DNA of 64,000 nucleotides from an uncultured Candidatus Saccharibacteria bacterium (GTDB lineage Bacteria; Patescibacteriota; Minisyncoccia; Phycocordibacterales; UBA6899): assembly GCA_964515375.1 (NCBI GenBank), contig CAZERF010000001.1, positions 115,243 through 179,242 of the forward strand, in the 5' to 3' direction. Below, in pieces: positions 26,696-44,003 of this stretch; the first letter of the stretch is position 1, and every line of letters starts with the position of its first letter. Under the pieces are notes generated by a model. The model was not told the DNA's origin, made no database searches, and was given only the letters and a program-made list of their open reading frames with translations. The translations under genes were made by a program, and so were the position numbers.

Positions 26696-26766
26696 CGGGC
26701 TATCGGATAGTGGTAGTCTACATGCATGGGGTGCATGCGGCGGCAGTTCGATTCTGCCTAGCCCGA
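26696..26766 (+). tRNA. tRNA-Pro (anticodon GGG), 71 nt, CCA not encoded
   Basis: Hand-folded cloverleaf. Acceptor CGGGCTA/TAGCCCG (7 bp). D-stem GGAT/GTCT with loop AGTGGTA. Anticodon stem CATGC/GCATG with loop AtGGGGt (U33, G37). Variable loop CGGC. T-stem GGCAG/CTGCC with loop TTCGATT. Discriminator A. Confidence 0.75.
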
Positions 26767-26802
26767 CAAAAGTTCAGTCAGTAGTTTACTTCACAAAAAT
26801 GT

Positions 26803-39366: not shown

Positions 39367-39846
39367 CTAAAATTCATTTTTCCCCGTCCCTTTTTCTCCG
39401 ATCTCGATCATGATGACGCGATAGCCGATCCATGCGTCATATGCCGCAAAGAGTGCACCAACCAGGATCGCCAACATTCCCGCAAGGAAAAAGATGAGCG
39501 ACGAAATGGTTACCGCTGGGGAGGGAAACCAATGCTGTATCCCGATCCCAAAAGAGGTCAAAATAAAGCACCCCACGGCACTTGAATAGCCAATGACCGC
39601 GTTGCGCACAAATCCGACCCTAATGCGTAGTTCATGAAGTTGTCGGTCTACGTTTCCAATACGTGAGTTGTTGATACGTTCCCCATTCTTCTCTTTTTCC
39701 GATGCGATACGCTTTTCTGCGGCAAAGGCACGCATCCGATCAATGATGAGTGAATACTTGTTGTTCATACTGAGTAAAAGCAGTCCGCACGCGGAGATCA
39801 TGACCGCAGGGGCCAGCATTGTTTGGATCACATTTGCAGTTATCAT
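39367..39846 (-). CDS. Hypothetical membrane protein, 159 aa, ~3 TM helices
   Basis: Clean ORF of the DUF2721-like class. I recognise no motif. Confidence 0.45.
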   Translation of the reverse strand: MITANVIQTMLAPAVMISACGLLLLSMNNKYSLIIDRMRAFAAEKRIASEKEKNGERINNSRIGNVDRQLHELRIRVGFVRNAVIGYSSAVGCFILTSFGIGIQHWFPSPAVTISSLIFFLAGMLAILVGALFAAYDAWIGYRVIMIEIGEKGTGKNEF

Positions 39847-39951: not shown

Positions 39952-41619
39952 TCATGAGATCGAGACGTTCGACGAGGAGGACGCGAGTCCGTCCCTCTTT
40001 TCTCCATAAAAGATCGCGACGGTAAAGAGGCATCCCTTTCCGGGCCCGTCGGAATCTACCCAAATATCCCCTCCCATCGCTTGAAGGAGGCGTTTTGCCA
40101 CATAGAGCCCGAGCCCTGATCCCTCGGTATTTTCTCGCTGTCCTTGCGTGCCCCGCGCGAATTTTGTAAAGAGTTGATGAATATCATCCTGCGAAAGACC
40201 AATGCCTGTGTCTTTGATGTGACAGATAACCCGCTCGTTCTCTTTGTCGTCATCAAGCGAGATCATGATCGATCCTTGCGGGGTGTATTTGATCGCGTTG
40301 TCGATCAGGTTTGAGAAGATCTGGCGAAGCTTCCCTTCGTCTGCGTCAACCACAATACGTTCATCACACAAAGTGAGGTCAAGTGTGAGCCCCTTTTTGT
40401 CCGCGATCGGCATGAACTCCTCGAATATTTCCGTGAGCATCTTGCGTATGTCGACCACAGAAAACTCATAGCGCATGGTTCCTTGTTCGATCTTGGAAAT
40501 ATCCAAAAAGTCATTGACCATATCCGCAAGACGTTTTGAGGAAAGGAATATTTTTTCGATCTGTGTATGTTGCCGGGTACTGAGCGGACCATATGCGTCC
40601 TCGAGGAGCATTGAAGAGTATCCCTTGATCGCAGTGATCGGTGTACGTAATTGATGTGAAACGATCGAGACAAATTCGCTTTTTCGTTGATCCATCACCC
40701 GAAGTTCCTCATTCTTTTTTGCCAACTCCCAGTTTGTTTCGGTCAAACGTTTGGCAAGTTGACTAATTTCACCTCGTGAACGAATCTCTTTATTTACTGC
40801 GACAATAAGAAGATAGCCAACAACAATGATCGCAACGAGAGATGCTGCTTCGATCATTCTCGTGTCACTTTCACCAAGCACAAGACGGCCCAATGAGAGG
40901 AGTACGAGTAGTGCGACGAATGTTTGTGTCGCCAAGAATTGTACGTTAAAAAGATTTAATCGTGCGATCGAATATACGATAATGAGCGGATAGAGGGTAA
41001 AGAAAATGATGGGATAAGGGGGAAGGTTAATATTGAACGTCAAGAAGAATACACTCCCCCCGCCTATGAATCCTGCCAATGAGGCAAGGAGGATGGCGAG
41101 TTTTTGTTTCCGTATTGAACCTTTAGGAGATTCAAGAACTGAAAAAAAGAGTATCATTCCCGCAAGGGTATTTACTCCAAAGAAATAGATCGTAAAGAGT
41201 GGGTAGAGGCCCCCTGCTTCGGGGGCAAAATGAAAAATAAACTTCGGGAGCACTGTCGACATCTCTGTGCTCATATTGGCAACCGCGAAGTATAGGGTAA
41301 ATGGAAGAACTCCAAAAAGAATCGGGAGTAAACGTCGTGTGTTATCGGTCATTAGGATAATAAAGAGAAGGTAGAAGAATGGGATAGCAATCGCCCCGAA
41401 GTGGAGTATCCAATTGGAAAGGAGTGCGGCCTCTTGAGTATCCGCAGTGATCATTGAGAAATATCCAAAACTCCATATTGCACTTGAGATGTTCAGGAGG
41501 AGCCAGGGGAGATGTTTTCTTTTCTCTTTTGCGTTCAATATAACAACAACACCTGAAGCAAGAGCAACGAGTCCGCCAAGAAAAAAGAGGACAGTAAAAT
41601 ATGCAAGTGGAAATGTCAT
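39952..41619 (-). CDS. Sensor histidine kinase with polytopic N-terminal membrane domain (~7 TM)
   Basis: H-box SEFVSIVSHQLRTPITAIKGY, plus N/G1/G2 ATPase boxes (DNAIKYT, IKDTGIGL, GSGLGLYVAK). Its start overlaps the stop of the upstream 550-aa gene (ATGA). Confidence 0.85.
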   Translation of the reverse strand: MTFPLAYFTVLFFLGGLVALASGVVVILNAKEKRKHLPWLLLNISSAIWSFGYFSMITADTQEAALLSNWILHFGAIAIPFFYLLFIILMTDNTRRLLPILFGVLPFTLYFAVANMSTEMSTVLPKFIFHFAPEAGGLYPLFTIYFFGVNTLAGMILFFSVLESPKGSIRKQKLAILLASLAGFIGGGSVFFLTFNINLPPYPIIFFTLYPLIIVYSIARLNLFNVQFLATQTFVALLVLLSLGRLVLGESDTRMIEAASLVAIIVVGYLLIVAVNKEIRSRGEISQLAKRLTETNWELAKKNEELRVMDQRKSEFVSIVSHQLRTPITAIKGYSSMLLEDAYGPLSTRQHTQIEKIFLSSKRLADMVNDFLDISKIEQGTMRYEFSVVDIRKMLTEIFEEFMPIADKKGLTLDLTLCDERIVVDADEGKLRQIFSNLIDNAIKYTPQGSIMISLDDDKENERVICHIKDTGIGLSQDDIHQLFTKFARGTQGQRENTEGSGLGLYVAKRLLQAMGGDIWVDSDGPGKGCLFTVAIFYGEKRDGLASSSSNVSIS

Positions 41620-43268
41620 GGGCGATAATTCTCCAAATATTTATTTCCCAATGATGATGGAGGTGTATCGGAAAGAAAGAAATCTGCAAGTCCGGAAAGT
41701 GACGGATAAACAATATTTGTTCCGTGATGTGGTTCGATGTGGATATCCCCCTCAAACGCTCCATTTTTACTCATTGCAACTTCAAAGGCGCGAATCTTCC
41801 CGTCAAGAGCATAAATCGCTGATTGAGGAGAGGAGCATGCGACGTGAGGATTATGTTCCCCATGCACATGCCATCCTTCGGGTATCCTTTCTGGATCAAC
41901 ATATCCGTGCCAGTGCGCAATCGCGAGTCCTTGTTGTGTAAGGTTGGTGATGAAACGTGAGCCCGGCTTCTTGTAGGAAAGCACCGCTGCGATAATAGCA
42001 TTGCCGATGGCATGCGCAAGGATAACGCGCGTATCAAATGAAGGTTTGTAGTCGGGAGTCAATACGAGTCCGCTCGGTGTTTCCATACTCATGACTCCAT
42101 TATGTAATTTAAGCTTTAAGAGATCACGTGACGGATTTAGATTTGTTTTATCCGCTCCCGAGCGTTGTGTGAGAATTTCAACTTCCGGAAGATGTAAAAT
42201 AAGATCTTCTTTTCCGAAGCTCATACGAAGATATGTCTCATCCTCCACTTCAAAAATACCACCAGAAGGAGGAATCATCTCTTTTTTAAACTTTTGCATG
42301 GCCACCTCCATACTCATTGCCGGTGCGATCTTTGTTGGCATTTGCCATGCAAGAAAACCAAAACTCATCCCATTTCGATGATCAAGATGTATTTTCCCAA
42401 TCCAACGATAGAAGCCATTTCGAAATGGGAGCTCGTCAATCTTCTTTCCTGGAGGATAGAGCCCCGTTCCCTGCATGCGGTGACTTCCTTCAATAAAATC
42501 TTTGACGATTTGAGCGTGTCGCTCATCGTGGATATCAAAATGTTTGTTAAGAGAATGAAATTCGGACAACCGGACAGGTTGTATCGGTGCGACAATCTTG
42601 GGGATCAACGCAGACAGTAATGCCTCTCGGAAATCTTCTCCACGAAGAGAGAAGAAGGGGTGCGAAGCATTGAAGTTGTAGAGCAGCCATTCATCGCTCC
42701 CGACCCCAATGACAATATTAGACATATGGTGTGCAAAAAGTGACATTGCGGTGTCGAAGTGTTTGTAGAAATCTGATTTTTTTGAAACTCCATCCGGCAT
42801 ATCAAGCACTGTCACAATTGAGGTGCGGCGAAAACTTGTTGTTCTATCCATTGGGAGCATGTTCGTTTCTTGTTCGCCAACTGAAACAACAGAAATACCA
42901 GGGGTAAAACGTCGCCGGTGACGCAAGATATTCAAGATCGCAGAGGGGTGAACGGGGTGCTTTTTTTGCGAGGAGTGCGTGAGATTGTAAAGAAGGACAT
43001 GGATGTCACGAAGGATTATGACCCCGGCGCGCATCAGTGCTGAATGAAGAGGAACGATGTGTAACGCTTTTTCAGTTGGAATAAGTTGAACTCCAAGCGA
43101 TGAGAGTTCCGCTTCGAATCGTTCCATGAAAAAGAGAACATTTGAAGAGACCTTCTTCTTGTCATAAGGAAGTATTGTGAGCTTTAGCTCACTAAGCATC
43201 TCTTCGCTTTTGGTCGGAGTGTGGGTGCTTATTCCGAGTATGCGTTCAATCACCTCTTGGTGCAGCAT
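41616..43268 (-). CDS. Hypothetical protein, 550 aa, His-rich C-terminal region, no domain recognised
   Basis: Long clean ORF with protein-like composition, translationally coupled to the downstream histidine kinase. It contains GWHVHGEHNPH...DIHIEPHHG. Confidence 0.55.
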   Translation of the reverse strand: MLHQEVIERILGISTHTPTKSEEMLSELKLTILPYDKKKVSSNVLFFMERFEAELSSLGVQLIPTEKALHIVPLHSALMRAGVIILRDIHVLLYNLTHSSQKKHPVHPSAILNILRHRRRFTPGISVVSVGEQETNMLPMDRTTSFRRTSIVTVLDMPDGVSKKSDFYKHFDTAMSLFAHHMSNIVIGVGSDEWLLYNFNASHPFFSLRGEDFREALLSALIPKIVAPIQPVRLSEFHSLNKHFDIHDERHAQIVKDFIEGSHRMQGTGLYPPGKKIDELPFRNGFYRWIGKIHLDHRNGMSFGFLAWQMPTKIAPAMSMEVAMQKFKKEMIPPSGGIFEVEDETYLRMSFGKEDLILHLPEVEILTQRSGADKTNLNPSRDLLKLKLHNGVMSMETPSGLVLTPDYKPSFDTRVILAHAIGNAIIAAVLSYKKPGSRFITNLTQQGLAIAHWHGYVDPERIPEGWHVHGEHNPHVACSSPQSAIYALDGKIRAFEVAMSKNGAFEGDIHIEPHHGTNIVYPSLSGLADFFLSDTPPSSLGNKYLENYRP

Positions 43269-43319
43269 GGTGTTCTCTTATTTCTTTTAATCACCCGTAG
43301 TATAACATGAGGGCTCTCG

Positions 43320-44003
43320 TTATTGTGAATTCTTCTCCACTTCTTTGTAGATCGAAACCATGAGAGTACGAGCTTGTTCTTTGTGTTCATTAAGGGGTGT
43401 TTCCTTGGGGAATGAGGAGGAGGGGTTGATTGGTTCCAGGAAAGAGAGTGTCACCGAGTGCTTGCGCAGAAAGAATCTTTCCCATGTGATATCCCCTACT
43501 CCGGAAAGAGCAATGGGGACGATGGGCAACCCCGTTGTGGAGGAAAGAAATATAACACCCGCCTTTGCTTCTCCAGGGTGTCCGGAAATATTTGTTTTTC
43601 CTTCAGGAAAGATGAGGACTGACCCCCCTTTTTGAAGCAGGTCAAGATGAGTAGAAAGTGAACGTCGGTAATCTTTCAGCCCCACGTTTGCAGGGTACGC
43701 ACCCCAGCATTTAAAAAAGAATCCTCCGTAAAGCAAGCGCTTTAAGAGGGTGTTCTGGTAAAATCCTTTTTCGCGAGAGACATAGAATATCGGCGCAAAA
43801 CGAGAAAAAAAAGGGAGTGCCGCCGGGAGCAGTATTGGGTCGAGCTCACTTGCGTGGTTGCTGGCGAATATTGCTGGAGCGTGAAGACATTGCACGTGTT
43901 CCATTCCCTTTACTTTCAGGCGAACAAAGAAAAGAAGTGCGAGTCGTGTGGGGATCCAGACTAGTTGCTGCAAGAAAAAGGGGGCTAACGCGCGAAGCAT
44001 CAT
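43320..44003 (-). CDS. plsC: 1-acyl-sn-glycerol-3-phosphate acyltransferase (LPLAT/PlsC family)
   Basis: Motif I is NHASELD and motif III is FPEGKTN. Confidence 0.75.
   Translation of the reverse strand: MMLRALAPFFLQQLVWIPTRLALLFFVRLKVKGMEHVQCLHAPAIFASNHASELDPILLPAALPFFSRFAPIFYVSREKGFYQNTLLKRLLYGGFFFKCWGAYPANVGLKDYRRSLSTHLDLLQKGGSVLIFPEGKTNISGHPGEAKAGVIFLSSTTGLPIVPIALSGVGDITWERFFLRKHSVTLSFLEPINPSSSFPKETPLNEHKEQARTLMVSIYKEVEKNSQ

What the first reader, a model, noticed from the sequence alone, without database searches (positions are those of the whole stretch)
39952..43268. Orphan polytopic histidine kinase translationally coupled to an unknown 550-aa His-rich protein
The 550-aa ORF (41616-43268) overlaps the start of a 7-TM sensor histidine kinase by 4 nt (ATGA), which implies an operon and stoichiometric coupling. 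No response regulator is encoded anywhere nearby. The 550-aa protein has no motif I can assign. It has a His-rich C-terminal region (GWHVHGEHNPH...DIHIEPHHG) suggestive of metal binding or a metalloenzyme. This pair is a candidate for an uncharacterised sensory or enzymatic module in which the kinase partner replaces a classical receiver.
Basis: partly seen in the sequence, partly recalled or inferred. Interest (0 to 1): 0.6.

Follow-up and report, generated by a model that had tools for sequence, protein, structure and literature searches.

The report
Conserved metalloenzyme–membrane histidine kinase gene pair
An uncharacterised 550-residue metal-binding enzyme is almost always encoded immediately upstream of a multi-pass membrane sensor kinase in Patescibacteria, and its relatives in other phyla sit among lipid-handling genes, so the pair may link membrane-lipid chemistry to signalling in these tiny bacteria.

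Summary
A 550-aa ORF (41616-43268, minus strand) overlaps by ATGA the start of a HisKA_7TM/HisKA/HATPase_c kinase (39952-41619). No receiver domain is found anywhere in the 64-kb window.

The kinase follows X on the same strand in 60 of 82 loci, with a median gap of 3 nt. It is within 5 kb in 34 of 34 Patescibacteria loci that have room, against 2-15 of 34 for other window neighbours. The pairing recurs in a separate X lineage (Binatia).

Neighbours elsewhere point to lipid metabolism:
- a PlsC-like acyltransferase;
- FadD-like ligases;
- FadL;
- short-chain dehydrogenases;
- in cyanobacteria, a docking-domain-bearing X next to a carrier protein in PUFA-synthase-like clusters.

The idea that X replaces a receiver is not supported. 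The idea of a conserved enzyme-kinase module is supported. The reaction and the coupling mechanism remain inferred.

The parts
41616..43268 (-). X550: 550-aa soluble protein of an uncharacterised family, with an N-terminal alpha/beta region and a C-terminal class II aldolase-like domain
42339..43268 (-). Approximate N-terminal alpha/beta region of X (residues 1 to about 310), carrying the universally conserved N200, K224, R298 and S302
41619..42281 (-). Approximate C-terminal class II aldolase-like domain of X (residues about 330-550), with S370-G371, K374, S410, D412, H452-x-H454, C478, E512 and H515-G516
41907..41915 (-). H452-W-H454 motif, the proposed equivalent of H92-x-H94 in FucA
   Evidence: H452 in 195 of 196 and H454 in 196 of 196 sequences. 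Equivalence to FucA is by eye, from motif order and strand position.
41721..41735 (-). E512-P-H-H515-G516 turn, the proposed equivalent of Q-H155-H-G in FucA
   Evidence: Conservation. This is the only stretch that hhalign aligned to FucA (QHHG), and the match was not significant.
42033..42044 (-). P-S410-F-D412 at a helix N-terminus, resembling PSSE73 of FucA and PSSD76 of AraD
   Evidence: S410 and D412 each in 195 of 196 sequences. FucA and AraD sequences verified against the PDB. Equivalence is by eye.
41616..41619 (-). ATGA overlap between the stop of X and the start of the kinase
   Evidence: Sequence read directly. Across 60 loci the gap from X to the kinase has a median of 3 nt.
41631..41634 (-). 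GGAG, a possible ribosome-binding site for the kinase, inside the 3' end of X
   Evidence: Sequence read directly. Function is inferred.
39952..41619 (-). Membrane histidine kinase, 555 aa
   Evidence: Pfam HisKA_7TM, HisKA and HATPase_c. Kinase-core hits in NCBIfam. H322, N441, D470/G472/G474 and G502/G504 are invariant in 40 orthologues.
40795..41619 (-). Polytopic membrane region of the kinase (residues 1 to about 275), with about nine hydrophobic segments and short loops
   Evidence: Pfam HisKA_7TM covers residues 16-226. Hydropathy. The single-sequence AF2 model was too poor to use (pLDDT 51).
40015..40683 (-). Kinase core: HisKA (residues 313-380, phospho-acceptor H322) and HATPase_c (residues 427-535)
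43320..44003 (-). PlsC-like acyltransferase (227 aa, NHASELD motif), a frequent upstream neighbour of X
   Evidence: Pfam Acyltransferase E 6.1e-17. NCBIfam hits to 1-acylglycerol-3-phosphate and acyl-ACP-phospholipid O-acyltransferases, all below cut-off. Within 5 kb of X in 26 of 34 loci.

Best explanation
X550 is a soluble, metal-dependent enzyme of a previously undescribed family. Its C-terminal half has the class II aldolase (AraD/FucA-like) fold with an HxH...H plus Asp/Glu metal site. Its N-terminal alpha/beta region supplies further invariant residues. The family most likely works on a polar or phosphorylated substrate connected with acyl-chain or lipid metabolism.

In Patescibacteria, and independently in Binatia, the gene is locked to a downstream HisKA_7TM kinase that has no cytoplasmic sensor domain. 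I propose that the two act together. X would serve as the cytoplasmic accessory or input partner of an intramembrane-sensing kinase, or its lipid-linked product would be what the membrane domain senses. The kinase would then signal through an ordinary response regulator encoded elsewhere.

Shown: the fold, the conserved residues, the conserved adjacency and the gene neighbourhoods. Inferred: metal binding, the lipid substrate, a physical or regulatory link between X and the kinase, and the identity of the phospho-acceptor.

For: Active site: N200, K224, R298, S302, S370, G371, K374, D382, S410, D412, H452, H454, C478, E512, H515, G516 and N518 are each conserved in at least 190 of 196 sequences from Patescibacteria, Thermoplasmata, Bacteroidota/Ignavibacteriota, Binatia and Cyanobacteria.

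Linkage:
- A 7TM kinase lies directly downstream in 60 of 82 loci, with a median gap of 3 nt. The 16 loci with room that have no kinase at all are all from outside Patescibacteria; a seventeenth, L060, has a kinase whose membrane domain the search missed.
- The kinase is within 5 kb in 34 of 34 loci, against 2-15 of 34 for DnaK, DnaJ, TrpRS, AspRS, ScpA and ScpB.
- The flanking genes differ between loci.
- The same gene order occurs in Binatia L075, which branches with the kinase-less clade.
- Extra 7TM paralogues cluster beside X.

Lipid theme:
- A PlsC-like acyltransferase in 26 of 34 loci.
- FadD-like ligases directly upstream in L063 and L064.
- FadL plus a short-chain dehydrogenase in Binatia.
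- A short-chain dehydrogenase directly upstream in 10 of the 17 loci compared, all 10 from Bacteroidota/Ignavibacteriota.
- Cyanobacterial TubC_N-X proteins sit after a free carrier protein in PUFA-synthase-like clusters with a PapA5-like acyltransferase, in 4 of 4 loci examined.

The kinase is catalytically intact and has no PAS or GAF domain in the window.
Against: - No sequence-level link to class II aldolases. Pfam Aldolase_II was not hit even at E 10. The profile search of the PDB was empty. hhalign was not significant. Ligand equivalence is therefore by eye.
- No X-kinase fusion exists among 217 family clusters, so there is no Rosetta-stone support for physical contact.
- X functions without any kinase in several phyla.
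- The neighbourhood genes are generic families, mostly below curated cut-offs.
- No carrier protein lies near X in the window or in loci L001-L083.
- Short gaps are common in compact genomes, so translational coupling is not proven.
Confidence: 0.5

Rival explanations
1. X is chiefly a ligand- or metal-binding co-sensor, comparable to H-NOX with HnoK or NosP with NahK. On this reading its aldolase-like pocket binds a metabolite and allosterically switches the kinase, and X catalyses no pathway reaction in Patescibacteria.
For: Obligate adjacency with a kinase that lacks its own cytoplasmic sensor domain. A conserved pocket with metal-type ligands.
Against: The full set of polar invariants, including C478 and K374, is kept in lineages without any kinase and in cyanobacterial biosynthetic clusters. 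That argues for catalysis. Sensing and catalysis are not mutually exclusive.
Confidence: 0.2
2. One reading: X is the phospho-acceptor or output of the kinase, taking the place of a response regulator.
Against: - The receiver HMM finds nothing in the X family.
- The candidate D156 is Asp in only 134 of 196 sequences.
- A receiver lies directly after the kinase in L048, and NtrC-type regulators follow it in L075.
- X exists without a kinase elsewhere.
Confidence: 0.05
3. There is no functional link. The two genes are neighbours only because of inherited gene order in compact Patescibacteria genomes, and X is an independent metabolic enzyme.
For: The whole region is one long run of same-strand genes with short gaps. 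Some housekeeping neighbours are also partly conserved.
Against: - Adjacency is 34 of 34, against at most 15 of 34 for any other neighbour.
- The X-kinase block is kept while the flanks change.
- The order recurs in Binatia, in a different branch of the X tree.
- 7TM paralogues accumulate at the locus.
Confidence: 0.1

Closest known systems
Class II aldolase/adducin superfamily (FucA, RhaD, AraD, MtnB, YgbL/OtnC, NovR, pyruvic oxime dioxygenase)
   Different: There is no detectable sequence or profile similarity. X has an extra N-terminal region of about 300 residues that contributes invariant residues. A universally conserved Cys and Lys are not part of the canonical set. The region after the HxH motif is shortened. 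The reaction is unknown.
Intramembrane-sensing histidine kinases with accessory partners (LiaS-LiaF, BceS-BceAB) and kinase-co-sensor operon pairs (H-NOX-HnoK, NosP-NahK); comparison from my own knowledge
   Same: A kinase with minimal loops and no sensor domain of its own is encoded next to a non-regulator partner gene in a conserved pair.
   Different: The partner here is a large soluble enzyme-like protein of a new family. No interaction has been shown. The membrane domain is HisKA_7TM, for which the two reviews read name no ligand (PMC5847659, PMC6944256).
Cyanobacterial 'TubC N-terminal docking domain-related proteins' in PUFA-synthase-like secondary-lipid clusters
   Same: These are true homologues over the enzyme body (BLASTP E 2e-40, 26% identity over 383 residues; profile E 1e-37 to 1e-48), and all the invariant residues are kept.
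   Different: They carry an N-terminal docking domain and follow a free carrier protein with an acidic C-terminal tail. They have no kinase neighbour. The window protein has no docking domain, and no carrier protein lies nearby.

Membership tests
Class II aldolase/adducin superfamily | AraD-like alpha/beta fold | tested here: met
Class II aldolase/adducin superfamily | Match to the family sequence profile (Pfam PF00596 Aldolase_II) | tested here: not met
   No hit for any of 42 members at E up to 10. The PDB profile search was empty. The hhalign match was not significant. A search of 1.84 billion proteins found only 217 clusters and no spill-over into the aldolases.
Class II aldolase/adducin superfamily | Metal site of three His (HxH plus a distal His) with an acidic residue | tested here: inconclusive
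   H452, H454, H515, D412 and E512 are each conserved in at least 195 of 196 sequences, and they occur in the expected order. Positional equivalence to FucA H92/H94/H155/E73 was judged by eye, because no structural alignment was printed.
Class II aldolase/adducin superfamily | Metal actually bound, and catalysis through an enolate-type intermediate | not testable with these tools
   Needs purified protein.
Two-component sensor histidine kinase (HisKA type) | H-box histidine and the N, G1 and G2 boxes | tested here: met
   Pfam HisKA and HATPase_c. H322, N441, D470/G472/G474 and G502/G504 are invariant in 40 orthologues.
Two-component sensor histidine kinase (HisKA type) | Cognate response regulator encoded with it | tested here: not met
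   None in the 64-kb window. A receiver lies within 5 kb in 2 of 34 related loci. Receivers are present next to or near the kinase in L048, L075, L045, L007 and L064.
Response-regulator receiver domain (for X) | Receiver profile match and a conserved phospho-acceptor Asp | tested here: not met
Kinase accessory or co-sensor protein | Conserved adjacency to the kinase across lineages | tested here: met
Kinase accessory or co-sensor protein | Physical interaction with the kinase, or control of it | not testable with these tools
   No multimer prediction was available.
Docking-domain trans-acting enzymes of NRPS/PKS lines | TubC_N docking domain and a neighbouring carrier protein | tested here: not met
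   The window protein has no TubC_N hit. No carrier protein lies in the window or in loci L001-L083. Both features are present only in the cyanobacterial relatives.

The most novel reading that the evidence does not exclude
X and the 7TM kinase form a dedicated membrane-lipid surveillance module of Patescibacteria. X would be a new kind of metalloenzyme, whose cyanobacterial relatives dock onto carrier proteins in secondary-lipid assembly lines, possibly loading or modifying a polar head-group unit through the invariant Cys. In Patescibacteria it would bind the kinase directly, so that lipid acquisition or remodelling (together with the adjacent PlsC-like acyltransferase) is reported to gene regulation. 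That would matter in organisms which, from my own knowledge of the field, are thought to be unable to make their own fatty acids.
Probability: 0.2. Interest if true: 0.75.

Novelty: new variant of a known kind. Interest (0 to 1): 0.55.

Why it matters
Patescibacteria have very small genomes and few signalling proteins, so a kinase-partner pair kept in every locus examined is likely to be central to their biology.

The partner defines a protein family with no Pfam model and no described function. It is found from Patescibacteria to Cyanobacteria and Thermoplasmata.

The gene neighbourhoods give a testable lead towards lipid handling. They also offer genetically tractable cyanobacteria, such as Nostoc and Cylindrospermum, in which the enzyme's reaction could be worked out.

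The pair also provides a first candidate input for the HisKA_7TM sensor domain, for which the two reviews read name no ligand.

Tried and rejected
- Sequence searches of X against Pfam, NCBIfam and the PDB, both as a single sequence and as a profile, gave nothing.
- hhalign of the X family against FucA, AraD and RhaD aligned only PHHG to QHHG, with E 0.23. The aldolase profile was too shallow.
- The FucA homologue search returned only proteins at least 85% identical to FucA, so it did not help.
- The AFDB Foldseek library was unavailable.
The single-sequence model of the membrane region had pLDDT 51, so it was not used for a fold search.
- X-kinase fusions were looked for and none found. No family member exceeds 631 aa.
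- A carrier protein near X outside cyanobacteria was looked for and none found.
- The DUF2721 gene downstream of the kinase is not conserved in related loci.
- Promoter and terminator scans were uninformative.
- Literature searches found no description of the X family or of the pair. The JACS Au 2026 paper on PUFA-synthase hybrids does not mention docking domains or aldolases anywhere in its text.
- The receiver-substitute idea was rejected for the reasons given under the rival explanations.
Full report
**1. Observation.**
The window carries a long run of minus-strand genes: ScpB, ScpA, AspRS, TrpRS, a DUF2721 membrane protein, a histidine kinase (39952-41619), a 550-aa ORF (41616-43268, here called X), a PlsC-like acyltransferase (43320-44003), DnaJ and DnaK. 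The X stop and the kinase start share ATGA at 41616-41619, and a GGAG lies 11 nt upstream of the kinase ATG.

The kinase matches HisKA_7TM, HisKA and HATPase_c. Hydropathy suggests about nine hydrophobic segments with loops of 28 residues or fewer, and no PAS or GAF domain is present. X has no Pfam, NCBIfam or PDB sequence match, whether searched alone or as a 42-sequence profile. It has no convincing transmembrane segment.

No receiver domain occurs anywhere in the 64 kb. phmmer with CheY and PhoB found nothing. A six-frame search with a receiver HMM and filters off gave a best E of 0.37.

**2. What X is.**
X belongs to a well-defined family. More than 370 homologues were found, and the 120 listed are 44-51% identical and full length. 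Those that carry a source name are from Patescibacteria or Parcubacteria groups (Yonath-, Taylor- and Daviesbacteria among them), and all are annotated as hypothetical. An exhaustive profile search of 1.84 billion representatives found only 217 clusters at E ≤ 1e-3. None is longer than 631 aa, so the family is compact, does not merge with any large known family at the sequence level, and is never fused to a kinase.

From the secondary structure and motif order I place the aldolase-like fold in residues about 330-550 and the Rossmann-like part in the N-terminal 300. The tools did not print residue ranges, so this placement is inference.

I compared X with the PDB-verified FucA, AraD and RhaD sequences. 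X shows the same succession of motifs:
- a Ser-Gly loop (S370-G371);
- P-S-F-D412 at a helix start (FucA PSSE73, AraD PSSD76);
- H452-W-H454 on a strand (FucA H92-N-H94);
- a P-H-H515-G hairpin turn (FucA Q-H155-H-G).

Only the last motif was picked up by hhalign, and not significantly. Equivalence of the metal ligands therefore remains a by-eye inference.

**3. X is an enzyme.**
In a 196-sequence alignment spanning Patescibacteria, Thermoplasmata, Bacteroidota/Ignavibacteriota, Binatia, Cyanobacteria and others, 17 residues are each conserved in at least 190 sequences. They are N200, K224, R298, S302, S370, G371, K374, D382, S410, D412, H452, H454, C478, E512, H515, G516 and N518.

The decisive ones are H452, H454 and H515.

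A constellation of this kind is kept whether or not a kinase is adjacent. That points to catalysis by a metal site that also uses residues from the N-terminal region, and argues against a pure sensor or a phospho-acceptor.

**4. The kinase linkage.**
A scan of one genome per GTDB species returned 80 loci, and look-ups by exact protein sequence added more. Of 82 loci with X, 60 have a HisKA_7TM kinase directly downstream on the same strand, with a median gap of 3 nt. One more, L060, has a kinase with a diverged membrane domain.

The 16 loci that have room and no kinase at all are all from outside Patescibacteria: Thermoplasmata, Bacteroidota/Ignavibacteriota and one other.

As a control for inherited synteny I took 34 Patescibacteria loci with at least 5 kb on both sides. 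The kinase lies within 5 kb in 34 of 34 and the acyltransferase in 26 of 34. The window's other neighbours occur in only 2-15 of 34, and a receiver in 2 of 34.

The acyltransferase-X-kinase block persists while the flanks change. In one locus the flanks are DnaK/DnaJ and TrpRS/AspRS; in another they are thymidylate genes and ribosomal proteins.

In a neighbour-joining tree the kinase-linked X proteins form the Patescibacteria clade. That clade includes L064, which is labelled Gammaproteobacteria. The Binatia protein L075 is also followed by a 7TM-GAF kinase, yet it branches with the kinase-less Bacteroidota/Ignavibacteriota clade. The pairing has therefore either arisen twice or been retained selectively.

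Paralogous 7TM kinases, and even stand-alone 7TM proteins, gather at the locus. The two reviews I read list HisKA_7TM among sensor domains and name no ligand for it (PMC5847659, PMC6944256).

**5. Where the phosphate goes.**
The kinase has all catalytic boxes, invariant in 40 orthologues. Ordinary receivers occur in several related loci:
- directly after the kinase in L048;
- NtrC-type regulators after it in Binatia L075;
- an OmpR-type or single-domain receiver a few kb away in L045, L007 and L064.

The reading that the partner replaces a receiver is therefore not supported. A distal orphan regulator is the simpler expectation, but I could not search the rest of this genome.

**6. Clues to the chemistry.**
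Neighbourhoods in unrelated lineages share an acyl or lipid theme:
- a PlsC-type acyltransferase in Patescibacteria;
- FadD-like fatty-acid ligases directly upstream in L063 and L064;
- a FadL-type outer-membrane fatty-acid channel and a short-chain dehydrogenase, divergently placed, in Binatia;
- a short-chain dehydrogenase immediately upstream in 10 of the 17 loci compared, all 10 from Bacteroidota/Ignavibacteriota.

Most telling is a large cyanobacterial subfamily of more than 500 proteins of about 620 aa. Its members carry an N-terminal TubC_N docking domain fused to X. BLASTP against the window protein gives E 2e-40.

In all four cyanobacterial genomes examined, the gene follows a free-standing carrier protein inside a PUFA-synthase-like cluster. 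The cluster holds KS/CLF, PfaD and KR/DH genes, a PapA5-like condensation protein, reductases and an exporter, and no adenylation enzyme was called within 9-10 kb. The carrier proteins end in similar acidic tails. From my own knowledge, that is the kind of sequence such docking domains bind.

This suggests that the cyanobacterial enzyme acts on, or loads, a carrier-protein-bound intermediate. No carrier protein lies near X in the window or in loci L001-L083, so the Patescibacteria enzyme must work on a free substrate or with a different partner. These neighbour families are broad and most scores are below curated cut-offs, so the lipid link is a lead and not a result.

**7. Mechanism proposed.**
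X is a cytoplasmic metalloenzyme that acts on a polar, possibly phosphorylated, unit tied to acyl-lipid metabolism. The kinase is an intramembrane-sensing kinase. It would either be modulated by X directly or would sense the membrane consequence of X's reaction, and it would signal through a conventional regulator encoded elsewhere.

My confidence in each step is:
- fold and enzyme nature: about 0.85;
- selected functional linkage to the kinase: about 0.85;
- lipid connection: about 0.5;
- direct modulation of the kinase by X: about 0.35.

**8. Novelty and verdict.**
I found no paper describing this family or this pair. The case is a new family within a known structural superfamily, joined to a known type of kinase in an arrangement not previously described, so I class it as a new variant of a known kind. 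It is of moderate interest. The pair is solidly conserved and probably important for Patescibacteria, and it is testable through the cyanobacterial relatives, but its function rests on inference.

Noticed in passing
L003 15980-17647: A diversity-generating-retroelement-like pair (bAvd accessory protein and an RVT_1 reverse transcriptase) lies about 6 kb downstream of the X-kinase pair in a 563-kb metagenome contig whose X protein is identical to that of the Candidatus Taylorbacteria MAG locus L019.
   Followed up: no
window 40001-44000: GC content dips to about 0.456 over the kinase, X and acyltransferase genes, against 0.48-0.56 elsewhere in the window. Cumulative GC skew peaks near 44 kb although gene orientation does not change there.
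   Followed up: no
L063 1404-3555: Two stand-alone HisKA_7TM proteins (461 and 227 aa) with no kinase core lie upstream of the ligase-X-kinase genes in a Komeilibacteria contig.
   Followed up: partly
L050, L053, L054 (Thermoplasmata MAGs); L064 (labelled Gammaproteobacteria): The archaeal X proteins are 39-41% identical to the window protein and branch next to the Patescibacteria clade, which may reflect inter-domain transfer or mis-binning. L064 nests inside the Patescibacteria clade. Many loci titled 'Candidatus Saccharibacteria' look like generic Patescibacteria labels.
   Followed up: partly
window 39367-39846 (-): A DUF2721 membrane protein lies directly downstream of the kinase in the window. 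It was not found near X in any related locus.
   Followed up: yes
window 26696-26767 (+): tRNA-Pro(GGG) is the only tRNA gene and the only Rfam match in the 64 kb.
   Followed up: no
L084-L087 (cyanobacterial loci), genes just upstream of X: The free-standing carrier proteins end in similar acidic tails (…SESETFQI, …SESEFLEI, …SKSEIFQI, …EVTETVDV). These may be the docking partners of the TubC_N domain on X.
   Followed up: partly
L068-L083 (Ignavibacteriota/Bacteroidota loci): X is followed by two M16-family peptidase genes in 7 loci, and an FtsH gene lies nearby on the opposite strand in 9 loci. The relevance of these neighbours is unknown.
   Followed up: partly
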